Source: a virus
Reading direction: 5' to 3' (one strand)
IMG/VR virus record: IMGVR_UViG_3300025874_000001
Span: 1 to 35,863 of that record
DNA: 35,863 nt
Shown one piece after another: positions 1,563 through 35,402 of this stretch. Positions within the stretch are counted from its first letter, which is position 1. Each line of letters starts with the position of its first letter. A model generated the notes under the pieces. That model did not search any database. It was not told the DNA's origin and saw only the letters and a list, made by a program, of their open reading frames with translations. The position numbers were made by a program, and so were the translations under genes.

Positions 1563-2324
1563 TTACATTCTCAAGAGCCAGTAAAGCTCAGCGCATTTCT
1601 TTGCTACCTTGATACCCTTGTCAAGCTCCTTGTCATTCCAGACCTTGTGGTGGTGCTTCTTGGTATCGCAGTCAATGATTACGGAGATACAGCCTGGCAG
1701 GTAGTCCAGCTTGCGCTCCTTCATTAGCATATAAGCTTCGATGCCGAGCTGCTGGCAGTCCTTGTCATAGCACTTAGCCTTGCCCTTGGTATTTGTACGG
1801 CACTTGTAGTCCGCTAGGAATAGCTTATCGTCGCTGTCGTAGCCAATGAAGTCCACGCTGCCAGCGATCTTGATTCGACTGCTTGCAATGATGTGCTCAC
1901 AGGATACAGGCTTTACGCCCTCCTCGTGAACCCAATCCACAAACGGCATAGCCCATTCATTCCAGACGCTGTCATCCGGCGCACTACCCTCGGCGAGGTA
2001 GTTATGATTAATGAAGTCCTCGATTACCTTGTGGACTGTCGTACCGAACTCCGAGGACTCAATAGTTTCACCCGTAGCCGGATGCTCCCTTGTGCCATAG
2101 GTAAGACGCTCTAACTCCTGCCAAGCTAGGCTAGGGTATGCCCTCGCTAGTTGCGCCATCATACGGGGCTTATAGATGCTATCAAGGAACGCATCCTTTA
2201 CGATGCCAAGCACAGTCGTAACAGAAGGATACACCTTCGCTACTTTCCGCGCTTGTGCGGGTGTCATTATGTCGGCCTCGAACTCAGGGTTCAGGACATC
2301 GTTGCAATTATAGAAGTGGCTCAT
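1563..2324 (-). CDS. PD-(D/E)XK (RecB/Cas4/YqaJ-like) exonuclease
   Basis: GSVDFIGYD ... LADYKCR gives a D ... D/E-x-K core. It is followed by a QhxxY-like motif (CQQLGIEAYML). The same genome encodes an ERF annealing protein. Confidence 0.6.
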   Translation of the reverse strand: MSHFYNCNDVLNPEFEADIMTPAQARKVAKVYPSVTTVLGIVKDAFLDSIYKPRMMAQLARAYPSLAWQELERLTYGTREHPATGETIESSEFGTTVHKVIEDFINHNYLAEGSAPDDSVWNEWAMPFVDWVHEEGVKPVSCEHIIASSRIKIAGSVDFIGYDSDDKLFLADYKCRTNTKGKAKCYDKDCQQLGIEAYMLMKERKLDYLPGCISVIIDCDTKKHHHKVWNDKELDKGIKVAKKCAELYWLLRM

Positions 2325-20167: not shown

Positions 20168-22945
20168 ATGCCTGAATACCGCACATACGGAGCAAAAGAC
20201 GATAAAATCCTAGAGGACCTCGATATGGGGTACACTGGGTTTAATGACTACCTACGTCCCGATCAATTGCAACGTGGTATATTAGCAACCAGCAACAATG
20301 GTCGGCTTGGGCGTAACGGTGAATGGCAGGTTAGACCAGGGATTGATTTGGTCAAGGCTCCCTTTGCTAGTGGTGACGATGTTCTTAGACTTCCAACTAC
20401 TTCCGAATTGGAAACAGTTCCTCCAGTTGTTGGCTTACTGCCAACTACAATTAGGTCCGCTTCTTTAACTAGTGACGTAGTTACTATTGTTATCGATGAC
20501 CCAGCCGTTGAGCCAGGTCACGTGTTTATTACAGGGGACGAAATTACAGTCAGCGGTATTCCGTTTGGGGTAGATACAGATCCCAATGGGACTTTTGAAC
20601 TTACTTCTGTAACAGATAACGGCAGCACAAAATCTCTTACGTATGCTTTAGTCGGGGCAGATGCAACATACGCTTTGCCAGTTGCTTTGCCTCAAGTTCT
20701 TCCATTTGCACTAAATGATGTCCAAGGTTCTGCAGTCATTGGTTACAATATGCTACTGGATCAAGGTGGCATTTCAGCAGTTTATGCTAGTACTCCTTAT
20801 AGCAATCCAAATGATTCCGCAAGTCAGTGGGTGCTACTAGGGTCAAACGTAAGCGCACTGGCCATTAACCTAGCGGACCCAACAGTTACATATGACCTCC
20901 CGTACAAGCGTGGAGAGACAGCACCTGTGCTTTCGGATATGATTCAAGCCTTCAACAAGGTGTTCTTGTTTCGTGATGGTCAGACTGCGCTAGAATGGGA
21001 CGGAAGCTTTGATAATGTTAATTTAACAGACCTTAATTTAGATAATACATATCTGATTACTGACTTAGGTGACACGACTCAATCGCAGTGGAACACAATT
21101 GCTGGAACTACGGCAGTAACCTATGAAGTTAATGATATTATTACAATTGATGCCATAGGCACAGGAACTGGTACAGTTCGCTCTGGATTTAGTTTAGTAA
21201 AAAGCGGAGTATACACGCAGCCAGTTCAGATTGATTGCCTACCTGGAGAATTTGCAATTACAAATAGTATAGCAACAGTTTTTGGATCTCACGATGTAAA
21301 GGTTGGGGATGATATTACTGTAATGTCAGCAAGTATCAGCGGAGCCGCTGGCGCAGACTCTGGACTTACCATTGGTCAGGACTACGTTGTAAATAAAATT
21401 TACGAATTTGGTGAATCCCTTACTGATATTACTCTTGCTGTAAATGATGGGTTACAAGGACCTGGGGATTATGAGGGTCTTTATAAATATACTATCACTA
21501 CAGATGTAGCGCATAATCTAGTGAGTGGTGAACCGATCATTATGGATCAATGGGTTCCAAATGGCGTTGCCTTTAATGGATCATTTTTTGTCCAAGGATT
21601 ACCAAGTTTAAATACCTTTGTTATCTATACTGACTTTAATGTCAATCCAACTGAATCGTCATATGCAGATGCTCGTGCAGGAATTAATGCAGGGTTCCAG
21701 TTTGTACTTGATTCACGAACAGTTACTACGCACGTAAATGACGGTGCATCTTTATTGACTGATCCTATCTTCACCAAGAGAGTTTCAGCTGGACTGGGCT
21801 TCACCCATATGCCAGCACCTCCATATGCTACATATCACCAGCGTAGATTGGTTATGCCGTATCGCTATGCGGTTAATGATGCAGAAGGCCAATATACAGC
21901 TCGTGATAACCTGGATGAGATTATTGTGTCGGACATCTTGGACGCAGATACCTATGACCAGATATATGGTCAGTACAGGTTCAATGCTGGAACGGCTGAC
22001 TTTAATGTTGGACTACTGTCCTTTGCGGATGACAAGCTAGTAGTATTTAACCGTAACTCAATTCACTTAGTGATAGGCAGCAGCCCTGATTCCTCTTCGG
22101 TTCAATTAATCACAAATGAGGTAGGTTGTTTAGCCCGTAAGACGATTGTTCAAATTGGTAACAACATAATGTTCCTTTCTGACAATGGTGTATACGGAGC
22201 AAACTTCCAGGATCTATACAACCTTCGTGGTAGCGAACTACCACTGAGTAGCAGCATCCAGACTACCATTGATAAGATTAACCGTCAGTACTGGGATCAG
22301 TCCGTAGCTGTTTACTTTAACAACCGCTATTACATTGCTGTTCCGACTGGATCAAGCACCGTCAATAATACTATCCTTGTGTTTAACTTTATCAACAAGC
22401 AGTGGGAGTCCGTGGATAGCACCTCTGACGTGGACTGGGACATCGAGAACCTGATCGTAGCTGGTAAGAAAGGTGACCGTGCAGTATACGCAGTGAATGC
22501 CCTTGGAGGGCTTCACAGGGTTGACGCTCGACCTGATGGCGTTGATCGACTGGCTACTACTATTCCAGTTGAAGGAGGACAGGAGGGCGTTATCTACAGC
22601 ATTCCTGCTGAAGTAACTACCCGTCAGTTTACCTTTAATGACTTCGGTCGTAAGCGTTGGAGTGAATTTGAGATGCACGTGCAGTCCAGTGCCTCAGAGC
22701 AGTCCGACTTTGATCTTTCAGCGGAAGTAGAAAACATTGACGCAGAGGTAAATCTTAATACATTGAGTTCATACATTGGTGGAAGTCTTGACATTGACGA
22801 AGATGTTTCCGTCCGTGGTAGAATAGGTAACCGCCGAGGATACGGCATTCAATTTACAATTAATAATACACAGGGTCGCCCAAGAGTCCGAGGAATCAAA
22901 GTCTCAGGAGCACCTGCATCAAGATCAACAACTAGCGTACAATAA
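20168..22945 (+). CDS. Tail tubular protein B / nozzle (T7 gp12-like)
   Basis: 925 aa. The N-terminal GFNDYLRPDQLQRGILATSNNGRL...WQVRPG parallels T7 gp12 GISQQPDILRYPDQGSRQVNGW...LQKRPP. The C-terminal end has the gp12-like pattern GIQFTINNTQGRPRVRGIKVSG. Confidence 0.55.
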   Translation: MPEYRTYGAKDDKILEDLDMGYTGFNDYLRPDQLQRGILATSNNGRLGRNGEWQVRPGIDLVKAPFASGDDVLRLPTTSELETVPPVVGLLPTTIRSASLTSDVVTIVIDDPAVEPGHVFITGDEITVSGIPFGVDTDPNGTFELTSVTDNGSTKSLTYALVGADATYALPVALPQVLPFALNDVQGSAVIGYNMLLDQGGISAVYASTPYSNPNDSASQWVLLGSNVSALAINLADPTVTYDLPYKRGETAPVLSDMIQAFNKVFLFRDGQTALEWDGSFDNVNLTDLNLDNTYLITDLGDTTQSQWNTIAGTTAVTYEVNDIITIDAIGTGTGTVRSGFSLVKSGVYTQPVQIDCLPGEFAITNSIATVFGSHDVKVGDDITVMSASISGAAGADSGLTIGQDYVVNKIYEFGESLTDITLAVNDGLQGPGDYEGLYKYTITTDVAHNLVSGEPIIMDQWVPNGVAFNGSFFVQGLPSLNTFVIYTDFNVNPTESSYADARAGINAGFQFVLDSRTVTTHVNDGASLLTDPIFTKRVSAGLGFTHMPAPPYATYHQRRLVMPYRYAVNDAEGQYTARDNLDEIIVSDILDADTYDQIYGQYRFNAGTADFNVGLLSFADDKLVVFNRNSIHLVIGSSPDSSSVQLITNEVGCLARKTIVQIGNNIMFLSDNGVYGANFQDLYNLRGSELPLSSSIQTTIDKINRQYWDQSVAVYFNNRYYIAVPTGSSTVNNTILVFNFINKQWESVDSTSDVDWDIENLIVAGKKGDRAVYAVNALGGLHRVDARPDGVDRLATTIPVEGGQEGVIYSIPAEVTTRQFTFNDFGRKRWSEFEMHVQSSASEQSDFDLSAEVENIDAEVNLNTLSSYIGGSLDIDEDVSVRGRIGNRRGYGIQFTINNTQGRPRVRGIKVSGAPASRSTTSVQ

Positions 22946-22947
22946 TT

Positions 22948-23670
22948 ATGGCGGATATTACAATTACTCCAACGGGTGCAGCATTTGACCCAACAGATAC
23001 CGTAACTTCAACTCGGCTCAATGAAGCCCGTAACCCTACGGCTGCCTTGACTACTGGTTCTATTGTACCAACTGATTTGAGCACTGGTGCTCCAAGTTGG
23101 GACGGTAGTGGAACTCTCAACGTTATTGGAAGTCTAGCTTCTGGCTCTATTTTTACAAGTAACGAAGCGATAGAAATTAATCAAAGTGGTACTGGCGACC
23201 GCAATGCATATGTAGATTTTCATACTGCTGACCCTAGCGGTACTGATTTCAATGCTAGAATTTATCGTGCTGGTGGTTTAGATAGCGACTTGGAAATATT
23301 AAACTCTGGAACAGGAAGCATTGTTGTTAATTCTACAGTTGCCCAAGTTAGTAACAATGCTCAATCCGTTGCTACTAAGGCTTATGTTGATAGTGTGGTT
23401 GCTCCAAGCACTTATACAGGAGGAGAAAGTGTAACGTTTCCTAATGGTTTGATTATGAAGATGGGATCTACTAGTAGTAAGACACTTGATTTCGGTACTC
23501 CTTTTCCAGGGGGTGTCGTAAGTGTCACTATCTCCAATCAAAGTAGTTACGGCGATACTTACGGAAATGCATCATTTGTGACCAGCTCTAGTCCTAGTCA
23601 ATTTACAATTAGCTCGGGAGTAAGTGTGAGCGGCAATGGACCTTGGTTCTGGCAAGCAATCGGATACTAA
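22948..23670 (+). CDS. Tail fibre protein 1 (240 aa)
   Basis: A KAYVD collar motif is followed by FPNGLIMKMGS and a C-terminal WFWQAIGY. The C-terminal domain is paralogous to that of the next gene. Confidence 0.65.
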   Translation: MADITITPTGAAFDPTDTVTSTRLNEARNPTAALTTGSIVPTDLSTGAPSWDGSGTLNVIGSLASGSIFTSNEAIEINQSGTGDRNAYVDFHTADPSGTDFNARIYRAGGLDSDLEILNSGTGSIVVNSTVAQVSNNAQSVATKAYVDSVVAPSTYTGGESVTFPNGLIMKMGSTSSKTLDFGTPFPGGVVSVTISNQSSYGDTYGNASFVTSSSPSQFTISSGVSVSGNGPWFWQAIGY

Positions 23671-23707
23671 TGAACCCCATCCTCCAATCAGTACAACAAT
23701 TTAAATT

Positions 23708-24340
23708 ATGGCCATTATAAATAAAGGAACAGCTTTCTCCAACGGGGAACAACTATCAGCAAGCAAGCTTAATGATTTAGTAGACGGAGCTACCTTTGGT
23801 ACTGACTCCGTTGATAACGCTAGTACAATCGTAAACGCCAACGGAGCTATTACGGTTCGTGACAGCGGTGTTACCGCTGCTAAACTAGCTACGGGTTCTG
23901 TTACTACAAATAAGATCGTAGACGCTAATGTTACTTTTGCTAAGCTTACCGATGTCATTGACGATGACACAATGGATACAGCTACCAATACGACCTTGGC
24001 TACTTCGGAAAGCATTAAGGCTTATGTTAATGGAACATCGGATTTATCTACCAATGGTTATCAAATTTTTCCAAGTGGATTAATTATGCAGTGGGGAACA
24101 TATAATACTGCAGGAACTCCTGCTGGTAATGTGACTATTGATTTTCCAATTCATTTTACAACAGCTTGTTTAAATCTTTCCGCAACACTAAGACAACCAC
24201 TTGGGAGTGCTGATGGAGCAAACACTGTGTCCGCAGAATTGGACGACTCTTTGCCACTTGAAAAATTCACGCTTGGATTTGATGAACACGACGTTCCAGC
24301 AGGCGATAAATATGCGTGGTGGCAAGCAATCGGATACTAA
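23708..24340 (+). CDS. Tail fibre protein 2 (210 aa)
   Basis: A KAYVN collar motif is followed by FPSGLIMQWGT and a C-terminal AWWQAIGY. The N-terminus has repeated (D/T)xxV(T/D)xxK(L/I) segments typical of fibre shafts. Confidence 0.65.
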   Translation: MAIINKGTAFSNGEQLSASKLNDLVDGATFGTDSVDNASTIVNANGAITVRDSGVTAAKLATGSVTTNKIVDANVTFAKLTDVIDDDTMDTATNTTLATSESIKAYVNGTSDLSTNGYQIFPSGLIMQWGTYNTAGTPAGNVTIDFPIHFTTACLNLSATLRQPLGSADGANTVSAELDDSLPLEKFTLGFDEHDVPAGDKYAWWQAIGY

Positions 24341-24822
24341 TGAACCCTCTCCTTCAATCAGTACAACTAGCGTTGCAAAACGCTACGCAAAAGGAAGCCC
24401 TTGTCTACATCGACAAGGTAGTGGACTTCTGTATTGAAAAGGAGAACGGTAAGGTACTGGACGGATGGCCCCGTGACTTAATACAACTACTTGTATCCTA
24501 CCATATGGCTAAGGATACCTTTATTGCAGAGCAGGACGCAGAGGGTAATATCTTAGGGGTCTTTATGTGGTATAATTGCGACGAGGAAGACGACTGGTTC
24601 TTTGTTCAGAACTGGGAGTCGGACAAGGAAGACGGCAATGCAATCTTTATGGCCTTCCTATTTGCGGAGGATAATCAAACTTTTAAGAAACTTACACATA
24701 ACTTCATTACTCAATGCCCTGAGGTTATGCAGAAAAAACTACTAGGCATACGATACAGGCAAGGTGCTCCCACTAAAGTGGTATACAGCACTGCATTATT
24801 CAACAAAATCTTAGGAATATAA
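24340..24822 (+). CDS. Hypothetical protein (160 aa from ATG 24340)
   Basis: The track ORF begins at 24316 inside the fibre gene. ATG 24340 (MNPLLQSVQ...) overlaps the fibre stop as TAATG. It is also the start that is duplicated as a relic at 23670. Confidence 0.5.
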   Translation: MNPLLQSVQLALQNATQKEALVYIDKVVDFCIEKENGKVLDGWPRDLIQLLVSYHMAKDTFIAEQDAEGNILGVFMWYNCDEEDDWFFVQNWESDKEDGNAIFMAFLFAEDNQTFKKLTHNFITQCPEVMQKKLLGIRYRQGAPTKVVYSTALFNKILGI

Positions 24823-30893: not shown

Positions 30894-31622
30894 CTATGGG
30901 TTCTTATAATTGATAAGTAAATCTTTTAGGTTACGCTTCTCATCCTGTAGTTCCTTACGCTGCTCAATCATACGATCAATGCGGTAGGATAGAAGCCGGG
31001 ATTCCTGCCGAATCATATCGATCTGAGTCTGGATTCTTTCGATGTTTTCTTCGGTGTCTTGCATACTCTGAACTTGTGCGGAAGCCTCCTCCTTGTCAAC
31101 AAATAACTCGGGAAAATTTAACCCTTCTAATGGATAATTTAACGCCTCGTAGCAGAAGGTATCACGGGCGATAGCGGCCTCCTTCTCGTCATCAAAGTAG
31201 CCCAGTTCGTACCGCCTCCTGCTCTTGCCTTTACCTACATCAATTGTAACGCGGCATTTTTTCTTGCCAGCTGGCCAGCGCACCCCCCGATACTTAGAAT
31301 TACCTGTTATCTTTCGTGATCCCCTAAGATTCTGAGAGTGTGTGACATACCGCAAGTTGGATGGTGCATTATTTGAACTATCTCCATTGATATGATCAAT
31401 GTCGTAGTTGTCCGGTCTAGGTCCAAGGAAGGCTCTTGCGATTAATCCGTGAACGCTAAGGACTTTCAATCCTACGCCCAAGCTCCGATACCCCTTTCCA
31501 TCATCATAGCCGAATGATCTTCCTCGACTGGAACGTCCGTGCCTCTCTACACTTCCGTCCGAGTAACAGGTTACTCTTATTCCGTTTACGCTTATATCCT
31601 TTGATGTTTCTGTAGCTATCAT
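30894..31622 (-). CDS. HNH homing endonuclease with an AP2 DNA-binding domain
   Basis: DHINGDSSNNAPSNLRYVTHSQN is an HNH motif. YRGVRW ... CRVTIDV ... YELGYFDDEKEAAIARD is AP2-like. The C-terminal tail is coiled-coil. Confidence 0.8.
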   Translation of the reverse strand: MIATETSKDISVNGIRVTCYSDGSVERHGRSSRGRSFGYDDGKGYRSLGVGLKVLSVHGLIARAFLGPRPDNYDIDHINGDSSNNAPSNLRYVTHSQNLRGSRKITGNSKYRGVRWPAGKKKCRVTIDVGKGKSRRRYELGYFDDEKEAAIARDTFCYEALNYPLEGLNFPELFVDKEEASAQVQSMQDTEENIERIQTQIDMIRQESRLLSYRIDRMIEQRKELQDEKRNLKDLLINYKNP

Positions 31623-34486: not shown

Positions 34487-34963
34487 TTAGAATCCTTGTG
34501 ATTGTTTAGTTGTAGGTTTAGGCAATTTGCTGCCGTGGTCATTAGTAGCGTCCGGATCTTTGGTATCGTCAATAGCAAAGAGTCCATTAAGTGCATATTT
34601 TCTGGCGTAGGATGAGGCACTGCCAGTAATCTGGGCATCGTCCATACCTTTCTTTGTCTCCGCCTCACGAGCGTAGGCATTAACGTGAATCGAGCTATCA
34701 CTGCTATCATCTGTGGATGCAATAACGGCGGTTGACTTGACGTATACCCGGCCACCGACCTCAACCATTTCATCGGTGATTACTAAGGTGCAGGACCACT
34801 CAGCCAGCAATGGCTTGACGGATGTAAGGATGTCCTCAGCGGAACGGTAGCGGTAACCACCGAACTTATTAGTCTGTCCCTTCGGTGCTTTCAAAGAGGA
34901 CTGAATCCCCTGGAGTTTCTTATGTATGTTCATCGTGATTAATTTGGTTTTGTTATTACTCAT
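34487..34963 (-). CDS. erf: ERF-family single-strand annealing protein
   Basis: KFGGYRYRSAEDILTSVKPLL ... ITGSASSYARKYALNGLFAIDD is characteristic of the ERF superfamily. Confidence 0.75.
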   Translation of the reverse strand: MSNNKTKLITMNIHKKLQGIQSSLKAPKGQTNKFGGYRYRSAEDILTSVKPLLAEWSCTLVITDEMVEVGGRVYVKSTAVIASTDDSSDSSIHVNAYAREAETKKGMDDAQITGSASSYARKYALNGLFAIDDTKDPDATNDHGSKLPKPTTKQSQGF

Positions 34964-35402
34964 ATGTTTTTTTGGTTAGTTTACGGAACAGCTCTTTACG
35001 CTGCTTTTGATTTTTACAGGAATCAAGATCACCTTCACTTGCTCCTAGGTCTTTTAACTCTGTGACTTGTTCAGAGGCTGTCAAGGAATTTCCGAACTTT
35101 CTTGTAAGTTGCGTAAGTCCTACGGGATGAAGGACATCGGTCATCTCCTGCTCCAAGTAAGCGGCCATTGCCTCTAAAGTATTTGGCAAATCTTCCTTAT
35201 TACCCTTGCACATCTTGAGGAAAAAGTTCTCAACCTTTCCGAGAAGACTGTTGGCCTGGCGAGAGATTACACCGCGGACCATTCCGGTCTGGTGGTCGTG
35301 ATCCAGCACCCAGTCCTGCGTCTTAATGTCCAAGATGGGACAGGAGATTGGCTTGTTAGCCTCCCGGAACTCCTTGATTTGGTTCTGTGATAAGTAAGTC
35401 AT
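34956..35402 (-). CDS. Endonuclease VII-like (HNH-fold) junction resolvase, cysteine-poor variant
   Basis: VLDHDHQTGMVRGVISRQANSLLGKVEN aligns with T4 endo VII HLDHDH...GKVRGLLCNLCNAAEG. Only one of the four zinc-ligand cysteines is retained. Confidence 0.65.
   Translation of the reverse strand: MTYLSQNQIKEFREANKPISCPILDIKTQDWVLDHDHQTGMVRGVISRQANSLLGKVENFFLKMCKGNKEDLPNTLEAMAAYLEQEMTDVLHPVGLTQLTRKFGNSLTASEQVTELKDLGASEGDLDSCKNQKQRKELFRKLTKKTYE

What the first reader, a model, noticed from the sequence alone, without database searches (positions are those of the whole stretch)
23650..24367. Second tail-fibre gene sits between 48-bp direct repeats, leaving a relic start of the downstream gene
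23650-23697 and 24320-24367 match at 45 of 48 positions. Each copy covers the last codons of a fibre gene (WQAIGY, stop) and the overlapping start MNP(I/L)LQSVQ. After fibre 2 this start opens the 160-aa gene. After fibre 1 it is a 16-codon relic (MNPILQSVQQFKLWPL, stop). The two fibres share only the C-terminal KAYV(D/N) ... FP(N/S)GLIM(K/Q)xG ... WQAIGY domain and have unrelated N-terminal parts. This looks like a recent cassette duplication or insertion that created a dual-fibre phage with possibly broadened host range.
Basis: partly seen in the sequence, partly recalled or inferred. Interest (0 to 1): 0.65.

Follow-up and report, generated by a model that had tools for sequence, protein, structure and literature searches.

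The report
Recombination scar between two tail-fibre genes
The 48-base repeat is real: it is a decaying, non-coding copy of the next gene's start that travelled with a receptor-binding tip moved from the last fibre gene into the first, in a marine phage group that already had two fibres and swaps tips constantly.

Summary
23650-23697 and 24320-24367 match at 45/48, with none expected by chance. Each copy holds a fibre stop (WQAIGY*) and an overlapping MNP(I/L)LQSVQ start. The second copy opens the 160-aa gene and the first is a 16-codon dead end.

- **Not a recent gain of a fibre.** Of 93 distinct relatives, 63 have two fibres. Among 23 with a near-identical tail gene, 22 do.
- **Fibre 2 is not the insert.** Its leader and N-terminal part are conserved even in relatives that lack the relic.
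- **Fibre 1 is a chimera.** Its N-terminal part is about 97% identical in DNA to L073-type fibres, which have another tip and no relic. Its tip plus relic is 87-88% identical to L003/L083.
- **The tip came from the last slot.** The same tip family sits directly in front of the real 160-aa gene in other phages.
- **The relic is not a gene.** Similar relics occur in about 40 of 127 loci, behind at least 8 tip families. They show neutral decay (24 synonymous to 36 non-synonymous codon changes, against 42 to 4 in real starts) and lost ATGs.

The relic is best read as a scar that probably also serves, with the KAYV(D/N) motif, as a homology anchor for tip exchange. This is ordinary in kind, though an unusually clear example.

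The parts
20168..22945 (+). Conserved 925-aa tail (nozzle / 'head closure Hc3'-like) gene. It forms the left backbone flank of the fibre locus.
   Evidence: ORF. PHROG hits to virion and tail proteins. 162 relatives in IMG/VR. Annotated 'head closure' in Phage C75C1.
22948..23375 (+). N-terminal module of fibre 1 (the internal-slot fibre).
   Evidence: About 97% DNA identity to fibre 1 of L073, L014, L060 and L015, whose tips are different. By BLASTP it matches only fibres in the internal slot.
23376..23391 (+). Left anchor of tip 1: TAAGGCTTATGTTGAT (KAYVD). It is a direct repeat of 24016-24031.
   Evidence: Repeat D11, 15/16. Identity to L073 ends here and identity to L003 begins just after it. 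Alternative upstream sequences join at 23402 in Logan contigs.
23392..23649 (+). Variable receptor-binding tip of fibre 1 (Gp53-like_C domain).
   Evidence: Pfam PF21882, 31.8 bits against a cut-off of 24.9. Only 6 loci align here, the best at 88% (L083) and 87% (L090, L141). The same tip family lies next to the real 160-aa gene in L143, L144, L145, L023 and L024.
23650..23697 (+). Repeat copy 1: the last 7 codons of fibre 1 (6 residues WQAIGY plus the stop) followed by 28 nt of the relic start of the 160-aa gene.
   Evidence: 45/48 to 24320-24367.
23670..23720 (+). Relic ORF of 16 codons (MNPILQSVQQFKLWPL*). It is non-functional and runs into the start of fibre 2 in another reading frame.
   Evidence: Sequence. 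Relics in relatives lose the ATG and gain stop codons. Synonymous to non-synonymous codon changes are 24:36, against 42:4 in real starts.
23697..23707 (+). Conserved leader of fibre 2, CAATTTAAATT.
   Evidence: Present before fibre 2 in loci with and without a relic. It resembles the tail-gene end plus spacer of the single-fibre loci L019 and L021; this is weak evidence.
23708..24015 (+). N-terminal module of fibre 2 (the terminal-slot fibre).
   Evidence: 24-36 loci align here at 75% identity or more. By BLASTP it matches only terminal-slot fibres. Logan depth rises here 2- to 4-fold.
24016..24031 (+). Left anchor of tip 2: TAAGGCTTATGTTAAT (KAYVN).
   Evidence: Repeat D11.
24032..24319 (+). 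Variable receptor-binding tip of fibre 2 (Gp53-like_C, the lectin-type 'foot' domain).
   Evidence: Pfam PF21882, 56.4 bits. Sequence match to the R1 pyocin fibre foot 6cxb (E 2.3e-6) and to AP22 gp53 4mtm. No fetched locus aligns here in DNA.
24320..24367 (+). Repeat copy 2: the last 7 codons of fibre 2 (6 residues WQAIGY plus the stop) followed by the real start of the 160-aa gene.
   Evidence: 44-55 loci align here, and Logan depth rises up to 6-fold.
24340..24822 (+). The 160-aa gene (p160), the right backbone flank. Its predicted fold is GNAT / acyltransferase-like.
   Evidence: 116 homologues, nearly all 160 aa, which supports the ATG at 24340 as the start. AlphaFold2 pLDDT 90.7. Best Foldseek match is 4whn, E 3e-4, TM 0.56.

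Best explanation
The window is an uncultured marine podovirus. Its receptor-binding locus has two slots. Fibre 1 is the internal slot and fibre 2 is the terminal slot, whose stop codon overlaps the start of a conserved 160-aa gene (TAATG).

Each fibre has a slot-typical N-terminal module and a short exchangeable C-terminal tip. The tip is bracketed on the left by the KAYV(D/N) motif and on the right by the stop codon and next-gene junction.

Copy 1 of the 48-nt repeat is a scar. A tip that once sat in the terminal slot was copied into the internal slot together with its stop codon and the first ~28 nt of the 160-aa gene. The right end of the event joined that gene start to the leader of fibre 2 at a few bases of microhomology (...CAGTACAAC|AATTTAAATT).

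The tip plus relic then moved as one cassette between different fibre-1 N-terminal modules, by homologous exchange at KAYVD on the left and in the leader and start of fibre 2 on the right. The window's fibre 1 is one such chimera.

The relic codes for nothing and decays with time. While it is still fresh, it gives 22-28 nt of identity with every real 160-aa-gene start. That probably lets tips pass between the two slots and between co-infecting relatives. It could also delete fibre 2 by recombination between the two direct repeats.

Shown: the repeat, the chimera, the relic's spread and its neutral decay, and the occurrence of tip families in both slots. Inferred: the direction of the original transfer, the microhomology junction, and the use of the relic as a homology arm.
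For: - **Repeat is real and non-random**.
- **Chimera.** The window is about 97% identical to L073, L014 and L060 up to KAYVD. After that it matches L003, whose tip-plus-relic segment is 87% identical; L083 is 88%.
- **Conserved and variable blocks.** The profile of how many loci align at each position, and the metagenome depth, show conserved anchors at 23400-23470, 23650-24040 and from 24320. The tips lie between them as variable islands.
- **Tip family in both slots.** This tip family lies next to the real 160-aa gene in L143, L144, L145, L023 and L024 (65-69% aa). In L083/L140, L141, L090 and L146 it sits in the internal slot, always with a relic.
- **Gp53-like tip cluster.** It has 26 terminal or single-fibre members and 8 internal members, and all 8 internal members carry a relic. 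All 7 internal DVAVFR tips also carry one. The MWTRTA tip has 20 internal members and none carries a relic.
- **One shared right boundary.** The same boundary (CAG|CTTAACAATTTAAATT, spacer of 37 nt) follows at least 8 unrelated tip clusters. That argues for crossovers inside the relic rather than repeated independent illegitimate joins.
- **Not a gene.** Relics are not under coding constraint: 24 synonymous to 36 non-synonymous codon changes, against 42 to 4 in real starts (Fisher p = 3e-8). ATGs are lost in several relics.
- **Dual fibres are the norm**.
- **Stable genotype.** The same arrangement appears in six assemblies.
- **No regulatory signal.** No terminator or promoter on the + strand, and the RNA is less structured than shuffled sequence.
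- **Recombination enzymes.** The genome encodes a PD-(D/E)XK nuclease and an endonuclease VII.
Against: - Some tip families occur in both slots without any relic (MWKRTA, TEIPQ, LEVKS). The relic is therefore not required for exchange between slots.
- 22-28 nt is a short homology arm, and no single-strand annealing recombinase was identified in the window.
- The direction of the founding transfer cannot be proven from present-day sequences. The order of the relic types (I before II, or the reverse) is also unresolved.
- Most comparison loci are metagenomic contigs. An assembler can switch between strains at conserved anchors, so some mosaics may be artefacts. Only the window's own genotype was verified across several assemblies.
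- The clustering thresholds for tips are arbitrary.
- No experiment or raw-read evidence shows ongoing exchange or deletion between the two repeat copies.
Confidence: 0.7

Rival explanations
1. A recent tandem duplication or insertion of a whole fibre cassette (fibre 2, lying between the repeats) turned a single-fibre phage into a dual-fibre one.
For: Direct repeats flank fibre 2, and the left copy is a dead start. Single-fibre relatives exist (22 of 93). An unequal crossover between a 160-aa-gene start and a tail-gene end would produce this kind of junction. The fibre-2 leader resembles the tail-gene end of single-fibre L019 and L021, so an ancient event of this kind may underlie the two-slot layout.
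Against: 22 of 23 close relatives already have two fibres, and 13 of them have no relic. The tips are 29% identical. The N-terminal part and leader of fibre 2 are the conserved elements, while the tip of fibre 1 plus the relic is the mobile one. Carriers of the same relic type differ by 12-13% in the tip.
Confidence: 0.12
2. The small ORF is functional. It would be a leader or bridging mini-ORF that couples translation of fibre 1 to fibre 2, or a conserved small peptide.
For: The TAATG overlap is kept. Most relics (36 of 49 hits) keep an ATG. The common form is a fixed 8-codon ORF ending 11 nt before the ATG of fibre 2. The region is unstructured RNA, as expected for a translation start region.
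Against: Non-synonymous changes, internal stops and lost ATGs are frequent. ORF length varies (5, 6, 8, 10, 16 or 23 codons). 46 of 76 internal junctions were scored as lacking a relic, yet fibre 2 follows with the same leader. The window's 16-codon form exists only because three bases removed the usual stop.
Confidence: 0.1
3. The similarity reflects selection rather than shared descent. Both copies would be kept alike because the WQAIGY end of the domain and an optimal start region are constrained.
For: The codons for WQAIGY* are almost invariant even in phages whose tail proteins are 53-55% identical. AT-rich leaders are common throughout this genome.
Against: The 27 nt after the stop encode the N-terminus of the 160-aa protein. 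They have no reason to be selected behind fibre 1, and they decay there. The sharp edge of identity at the W codon, and the co-inheritance of relic type with tip clade, fit descent by recombination.
Confidence: 0.05
4. Assembly artefact: a chimeric contig joined at a repeat.
For: The window is a metagenomic sequence and contains repeats.
Against: Six independent assemblies and Logan contigs from three samples give the same junctions at 99.6-100% identity. The longest exact run shared by the two copies is 28 nt.
Confidence: 0.02

Closest known systems
[quoted passage not shown] 1998, as cited in PMC3157838; Trojet et al. 2011, PMC3157838)
   Same: Hypervariable receptor-binding segments lie between short conserved motifs. 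Natural chimeras have breakpoints in or next to those motifs. A large shared pool of interchangeable tips exists across related phages.
   Different: There is no sequence relationship. Here the right-hand anchor is not a motif within the protein but the stop codon plus the start of the next gene. Its displaced copy survives as a dead start between two fibre genes.
Dual receptor-binding-protein podoviruses (K1-5/SP6, G7C, Klebsiella KP32- and KP34-like phages; Latka et al. 2019, PMC6872550)
   Same: Two adjacent fibre or spike genes sit within a conserved structural gene order. N-terminal parts are conserved and C-terminal specificity parts are horizontally exchanged. Related single-RBP and dual-RBP groups both exist.
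   Different: No T4gp10-like branching domain or depolymerase was detected. The fibres are small (210-240 aa) with lectin-type tips. How the two fibres attach to the virion is unknown.
R-type pyocin and phage AP22 gp53 fibre 'foot' domain (Pfam PF21882; PMC6363177)
   Same: Both tips match this domain family. Fibre 2 matches the R1 pyocin foot directly (E 2.3e-6). In pyocins this jellyroll foot is proposed to be the subtype-specific sugar-binding domain.
   Different: Those are myovirus or tailocin fibres of around 700 aa with a downstream chaperone. Here the domain sits on short podovirus fibres, and the downstream gene does not co-vary with the tip.
Mosaic module boundaries in phage genomes and relaxed homologous recombination by phage recombinases (De Paepe et al. 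2014, PMC3945230; the linker-sequence idea of modular evolution, from my own knowledge)
   Same: Exchange occurs at short conserved sequences near gene borders, mixed with illegitimate joins at microhomology that leave gene fragments behind.
   Different: Here the fragment is a repeated, recognisable gene start found in about a third of loci, with a constant boundary behind many different tips.
Phage C75C1 (OQ984151), the nearest deposited genome
   Same: Major capsid protein 62% identical and tail protein 40% identical. A tail fibre gene follows the tail gene.
   Different: It has a single fibre gene, no DNA-level similarity, and no host or paper on record.

Membership tests
Gp53-like_C tail-fibre tip (Pfam PF21882) | Sequence match above Pfam's gathering score | tested here: met
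   Fibre 1 scores 31.8 bits and fibre 2 scores 56.4 bits, against a cut-off of 24.9.
Gp53-like_C tail-fibre tip (Pfam PF21882) | The domain forms the extreme C-terminus of a fibre protein | tested here: met
   Residues 164-240 of 240 and 121-210 of 210, covering profile positions 2-84 of 84.
Gp53-like_C tail-fibre tip (Pfam PF21882) | Sequence similarity to solved members (R pyocin foot, AP22 gp53) | tested here: inconclusive
   Fibre 2 matches 6cxb (E 2.3e-6), 6cl5 (3.3e-5) and 4mtm (0.011). Fibre 1 has no PDB match.
Gp53-like_C tail-fibre tip (Pfam PF21882) | Trimeric jellyroll (discoidin-like) fold | tested here: inconclusive
   The single-sequence AlphaFold2 model of fibre 1 is unusable at pLDDT 33.5. 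No multimer prediction was available.
Gp53-like_C tail-fibre tip (Pfam PF21882) | Binds a host surface carbohydrate | not testable with these tools
   The host is unknown and no assay is possible.
Anchor-branch dual-RBP podovirus system (K1-5, G7C, KP32 type) | Two adjacent RBP genes in a conserved structural gene order | tested here: met
Anchor-branch dual-RBP podovirus system (K1-5, G7C, KP32 type) | T4gp10-like branching domain in the first RBP or in an adapter | tested here: not met
   Pfam and PHROG scans of fibre 1 found only the C-terminal tip domain, or nothing. No profile-profile search was run.
Anchor-branch dual-RBP podovirus system (K1-5, G7C, KP32 type) | Second RBP carries a conserved N-terminal attachment peptide | tested here: met
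   The N-terminal ~85-110 aa of fibre 2 are 78-93% identical across terminal-slot fibres that have different tips.
Tip swapping mediated by conserved motifs (T-even gp37/gp38 type) | Variable specificity segments bracketed by conserved motifs | tested here: met
   Repeats D1 and D11 and the profile of loci aligning per position.
Tip swapping mediated by conserved motifs (T-even gp37/gp38 type) | Natural chimeras with breakpoints at the motifs | tested here: met
   The window combines the L073-type N module with the L003-type tip, switching at KAYVD. Alternative joins appear at 23402, 23705 and 24338 in the same samples.
Tip swapping mediated by conserved motifs (T-even gp37/gp38 type) | Homology to gp37/gp38 (membership by descent) | tested here: not met
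   No such family appeared in the Pfam or PHROG hits.
Programmed fibre switching (Mu/P1 invertible segment) | Inverted repeats flanking alternative tips | tested here: not met
   The repeats are direct. No inverted pair flanks either tip.
Programmed fibre switching (Mu/P1 invertible segment) | A site-specific invertase gene | tested here: inconclusive
   No invertase appeared among the ORFs scanned. Not every ORF of the window was scanned.
Real small protein-coding gene | ORF conserved under purifying selection | tested here: not met
   24 synonymous to 36 non-synonymous codon changes, lost ATGs and variable length.

The most novel reading that the evidence does not exclude
The displaced gene start may be more than a passive scar. 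It could be a maintained, portable homology arm. Together with the KAYV motif it would turn the two fibre genes of a widespread marine phage lineage into a two-slot cassette system. Any tip could then be moved between slots and between co-infecting genomes, and the second fibre could be gained or lost by recombination between the direct repeats. Relics would be continually renewed by each exchange.
Probability: 0.3. Interest if true: 0.6.

Novelty: new member of a known kind. Interest (0 to 1): 0.38.

Why it matters
- **Breakpoints at base resolution.** The locus shows how receptor-binding tips are shuffled in an abundant, uncultured marine phage group. On tail genes that are at least 95% identical, there are 8 tip families in the first slot and 10 in the second.
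- **A marker of slot history.** In the two best-sampled tip clusters, every tip found in the internal slot carries a relic. The relic can therefore help trace host-range evolution from metagenomes.
- **Exchange boundaries defined by nature.** The KAYV motif and the stop/start junction mark where tips are naturally exchanged.
- **Annotation.** The 16-codon ORF should not be called a gene. The 160-aa gene starts at ATG 24340, not at GTG 24316.
- **Assembly and binning.** Assemblers and binning tools can switch strains at these anchors.

Tried and rejected
- **DNA search against 50,697 deposited phages.** A search with the 5.9-kb locus found no match. The nearest record, Phage C75C1, is related only at protein level and has one fibre. 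The only paper containing 'C75C1' is unrelated.
- **Structure of fibre 1.** The single-sequence prediction gave pLDDT 33.5 and was not used.
- **PDB sequence searches.** Fibre 1 and the 160-aa protein found nothing useful.
- **Regulatory RNA, terminator or promoter at the relic.** No + strand site lies near 23650-23720. The RNA folds worse than shuffled sequence, z = +2.9. Rejected.
- **Fibre 2 as the inserted element.** Rejected, because its leader and N-terminal part are the conserved parts.
- **Recent tandem duplication of a fibre.** Rejected: the tips are 29% identical and the N-terminal parts show no significant match.
- **Deletion between the two repeat copies.** None of the listed joints in Logan contigs has the expected 670-nt skip, and four further joints were not shown. 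Contigs also drop rare variants, so this says little.
- **The fibre-2 leader as a relic of the tail gene's end.** It matches L019 and L021 at 14/15. AT-rich leaders are common here, so I keep it only as a possibility.
- **N-module clustering at 50% identity.** It collapsed into one cluster and could not be used to count N-module and tip combinations.
Full report
**1. The observation**

The repeat finder reports 23650-23697 and 24320-24367 as a 48-nt direct repeat at 45/48. A search with the 48-mer and up to 3 mismatches finds only these two sites, with 0.00 expected in 100 dinucleotide-preserving shuffles.

- Fibre 1 is 22948-23670 (240 aa, ends WFWQAIGY*).
- The ATG at 23670 overlaps that stop and opens MNPILQSVQQFKLWPL* (to 23720).
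- Fibre 2 is 23708-24340 (210 aa, ends AWWQAIGY*).
- The ATG at 24340 opens a 160-aa gene (to 24822).

The ATG at 24340, not the upstream GTG at 24316 listed by the ORF finder, is the real start. Nearly all of the 116 homologues are 160 aa.

The fibres align only over their last ~117 residues, at 29% identity. Both tips pass Pfam's cut-off for PF21882 Gp53-like_C. Fibre 2's tip also matches the receptor-binding 'foot' of R-type pyocin fibres (6cxb, E 2.3e-6) and AP22 gp53 (4mtm) by sequence. In pyocins that jellyroll foot is proposed to be the subtype-specific sugar-binding domain (PMC6363177).

A second, shorter direct repeat, TAAGGCTTATGTT(G/A)AT (KAYVD/KAYVN, 23376-23391 and 24016-24031), lies at the left edge of each tip (D11).

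**2. The arrangement is real**

Proteins identical to fibre 1 and fibre 2 occur together, in the same order and with a relic region identical to the window's, in six independent public assemblies. These are 99.6-100% identical to the window over the region. Logan contigs from three marine samples span both junctions without a difference.

**3. Genome context**

The window is a ~36-kb podovirus-like genome. It carries a terminase, a major capsid protein, a 925-aa tail gene, the two fibres, the 160-aa gene, three larger virion-type genes, and a replication and recombination block on the other strand. That block includes a DnaB-like helicase, an HNH endonuclease, a PD-(D/E)XK nuclease and an endonuclease VII.

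It has no DNA-level relative among deposited phages. The nearest is Phage C75C1, with capsid 62% and tail protein 40% identical and a single fibre. IMG/VR and metagenomes hold many relatives from marine and estuarine samples.

**4. What relatives show**

*Number of fibres.* I compared 93 distinct intervals between the tail gene and the 160-aa gene.
- 63 have two fibre-sized genes, 22 have one, 7 have three, and 1 has none. In at least one of the three-gene loci (L060) the third ORF is an extra copy of the 160-aa gene.
- Among the 23 loci whose tail-gene end is at least 95% identical to the window, 22 have two fibres.
- Single-fibre genomes are mostly distant, with tail protein 46-56% identical.

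Two fibres is therefore the standing architecture of this clade, not a recent gain.

*Tip diversity.* On those 23 near-identical backbones the first slot carries 8 different tip clusters and the second carries 10.

*Conserved and variable blocks.* Counting how many loci align to each position of the window gives a clear pattern.

| Region | Coordinates | Loci aligning |
|---|---|---|
| Start of fibre 1 (conserved) | 22960-23049 | about 20 |
| Middle of fibre 1 (variable) | 23080-23380 | 3 |
| KAYVD-FPNGLIM (conserved) | 23410-23469 | 36-41 |
| Tip 1 (variable) | 23470-23650 | 6 |
| Relic, leader and fibre 2 N-part (conserved) | 23650-24040 | 24-41 |
| Tip 2 (variable) | 24100-24310 | 0 |
| 160-aa gene (conserved) | from 24340 | 37-55 |

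Metagenome depth shows the same thing. In run X4 the tips sit at about 675x. The fibre-2 start reaches 1,244-1,367x and the 160-aa-gene start reaches 4,178x. Contigs carrying other modules join the window's sequence at 23402, 23705 and 24338.

**5. Fibre 1 is a chimera, and the relic belongs to its tip**

In a DNA alignment, the window is about 97% identical to fibre 1 of L073, L014 and L060 from the start codon through AAGGCTTATGTTGAT (KAYVD). Those fibres then continue into an unrelated tip that ends MWTRTA* and is followed directly by TAACAATTTAATATTATG, with no relic.

From just after KAYVD to the fibre-2 start, the window instead matches L003. L003 has a different N-terminal part but the same tip and the same relic. 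Segment identities confirm this:
- N-module: 96-97% to L015, L080 and L083.
- Tip: 88% to L083 and 87% to L090 and L141.
- Repeat copy 1: 92-94% to these loci.

The mobile unit is therefore the tip plus stop plus relic. Carriers of this relic type have diverged by 12-13% in the tip, so the relic is older than the window's own lineage.

**6. Where the tip came from**

A metagenome scan with the tip of fibre 1 found the same tip family (65-69% aa) in two settings:
- In the terminal or sole fibre, with its stop overlapping the start of a full-length 160-aa gene (L143, the TARA contigs L144 and L145, and also L023 and L024).
- In the internal slot, always followed by a relic (L083/L140, L141, L090, and L146 with a decayed relic).

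I clustered all 168 fibres by tip.
- The Gp53-like cluster has 26 terminal or single members and 8 internal members. All 8 internal members carry a relic.
- All 7 internal members of the DVAVFR cluster carry a relic.
- The MWTRTA cluster is almost purely internal (20 of 22) and never carries a relic.

In these clusters a relic marks a tip that came from the slot next to the 160-aa gene.

**7. Relics are common, come in a few types, and decay**

Scanning 127 non-redundant loci for the 22-nt start of the 160-aa gene gave 66 real starts and 49 short dead ends in 45 loci. About five of the 49 dead ends (in four or five loci) are chance matches at 6 mismatches.

The types found between fibres are:
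- **Type I**, the commonest: TAATGAACCCxCTCCTxCAATCAG|CTTAACAATTTAAATTATG. It is an 8-codon ORF with a 37-nt spacer, seen in about 17-19 loci behind at least 8 unrelated tip clusters.
- **Type II**...CAATCAGT(A/T)CAAC|AATTTAAATTATG. It has the same 37-nt length but three bases differ, which removes the stop and yields 16 codons. The TAC form occurs in the window, L090, L141 and L083; the TTC variant occurs in L036 and L104. In L036 it sits in a 62-nt spacer.
- **A third boundary**: ...CAAT|CAATTTAAT..., in a more distant clade.
- **Truncated remains**, such as TAATCAGCTTAACAATTT.

Two further kinds sit in front of the real gene. One is a 10-codon tandem relic. The other is a 69-nt relic preceding a divergent version of the 160-aa gene.

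Real starts vary almost only synonymously, with 42 synonymous to 4 non-synonymous codon changes. Relics change at all codon positions (24 to 36; Fisher p = 3e-8), lose the ATG, or gain stop codons. The small ORF is therefore not a gene.

No promoter-like or terminator-like site lies on the + strand at the relic. The RNA there is less structured than shuffled sequence.

**8. Mechanism**

*Shown.* Tips are exchanged as cassettes between conserved anchors. Terminal-slot tips have repeatedly ended up in the internal slot carrying the start of the next gene. The relic is non-coding and decays.

*Inferred.*
- The founding joins used microhomology of a few bases. For type I, CAG is shared by ...CAATCAG of the gene start and ...ACAGCTTAA of the MWTRTA* end. 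For type II, AAC is the shared sequence.
- Many unrelated tips share one right boundary. Later exchanges therefore had their right crossover inside the 22-28-nt relic or to its right. Every transfer of a tip family between the two slots, in either direction, needs the relic to pair with the real start.
- Because the two copies are direct repeats, recombination between them would delete fibre 2 and fuse fibre 1 precisely to the 160-aa gene. L067 is a single-fibre genome on a 96%-identical backbone. It combines an internal-type N-module with a terminal-type tip and a relic, which shows that such reductions do occur.

*Against the homology-arm idea.*
- A few tip families occur in both slots without relics.
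- The arm is short.
- I found no annealing recombinase, only a PD-(D/E)XK nuclease and an endonuclease VII. Relaxed recombination at short, diverged homology is documented for phage recombinases (PMC3945230).
- Mosaics in metagenomic contigs can be assembly artefacts. Only the window's own genotype was checked across several assemblies.

**9. Comparison with known systems**

In how it works, the locus is closest to the T-even fibre and adhesin locus. There, recombination in conserved motifs swaps hypervariable specificity segments (PMC3157838, citing Tetart et al. 1998). There is no sequence relationship between the two.

In layout it resembles the dual receptor-binding-protein podoviruses, with conserved N-terminal parts and horizontally exchanged C-terminal parts (PMC6872550). 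No T4gp10-like branching domain was detected here.

The tips belong to the Gp53-like / pyocin foot family. Nothing points to programmed switching. The repeats are direct, not inverted, and no invertase appeared among the ORFs scanned (not every ORF was scanned).

**10. Verdict**

This is a clear new example of a known process in an uncultured marine phage lineage. It is of moderate interest. The possibility that the relic acts as a portable homology arm remains open.

Noticed in passing
window 24340-24822: The 160-aa gene after the fibres has no Pfam or PDB sequence match. Its AlphaFold2 model is confident (pLDDT 90.7). The nearest solved folds are the toxin-activating acyltransferase 4whn (E 3e-4, TM 0.56) and GNAT acetyltransferases. 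It does not co-vary with the neighbouring tip.
   Followed up: partly
L060 5507-5998 and L080; also L067, L070, L076, L136: Some relatives carry a divergent version of the 160-aa gene (starts MKGNPLLLSV, about 50% identical), preceded by a 69-nt relic of the standard version's 5' end. L060 and L080 have this variant followed by a second copy of the gene.
   Followed up: partly
L008 4150, L010 3021, L025 3915, L134 9623, L143 1287: A 10-codon tandem relic (ATGAACCCCCTCCTTCAGACAGAGTTGCGATAA) sits directly in front of the real start of the 160-aa gene, behind several different terminal tips.
   Followed up: no
window 23697-23707; L019 and L021 tail-fibre junction: The fibre-2 leader CAATTTAAATT matches the tail-gene end plus spacer (GCAATTTAAATTATG) of two single-fibre relatives at 14/15. 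It may be a second relic from the event that first created two slots. AT-rich leaders are common in this genome, so the evidence is weak.
   Followed up: partly
window 24032-24319: The tip of fibre 2 has no DNA-level relative in any of the 126 non-redundant loci fetched. By protein it is at most about 39% identical over its length to other tips. Even so, the genotype occurs in at least six assemblies.
   Followed up: partly
window 23630-23740: The RNA around the relic and the fibre-2 start is markedly less structured than shuffled sequence (z = +2.94; all 200 shuffles fold at least as well).
   Followed up: no
window 1563-2324 (-), 30894-31622 (-), 34956-35402 (-): Recombination-related genes: a PD-(D/E)XK nuclease, an HNH endonuclease beside the DnaB-like helicase, and an endonuclease VII. 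No single-strand annealing protein was recognised.
   Followed up: no
L021 2899-4769 compared with L019 3533-5401: The long single fibre (622 aa in L019) stops about 61 nt early in L021. The normal end (PISFAAIW*) is still readable in another frame, which indicates a frameshift or a sequencing error.
   Followed up: no
window 24316-24339: The mechanical ORF list starts the 160-aa gene at GTG 24316 (168 aa), inside the end of fibre 2. Homologue lengths support ATG 24340 as the real start.
   Followed up: yes
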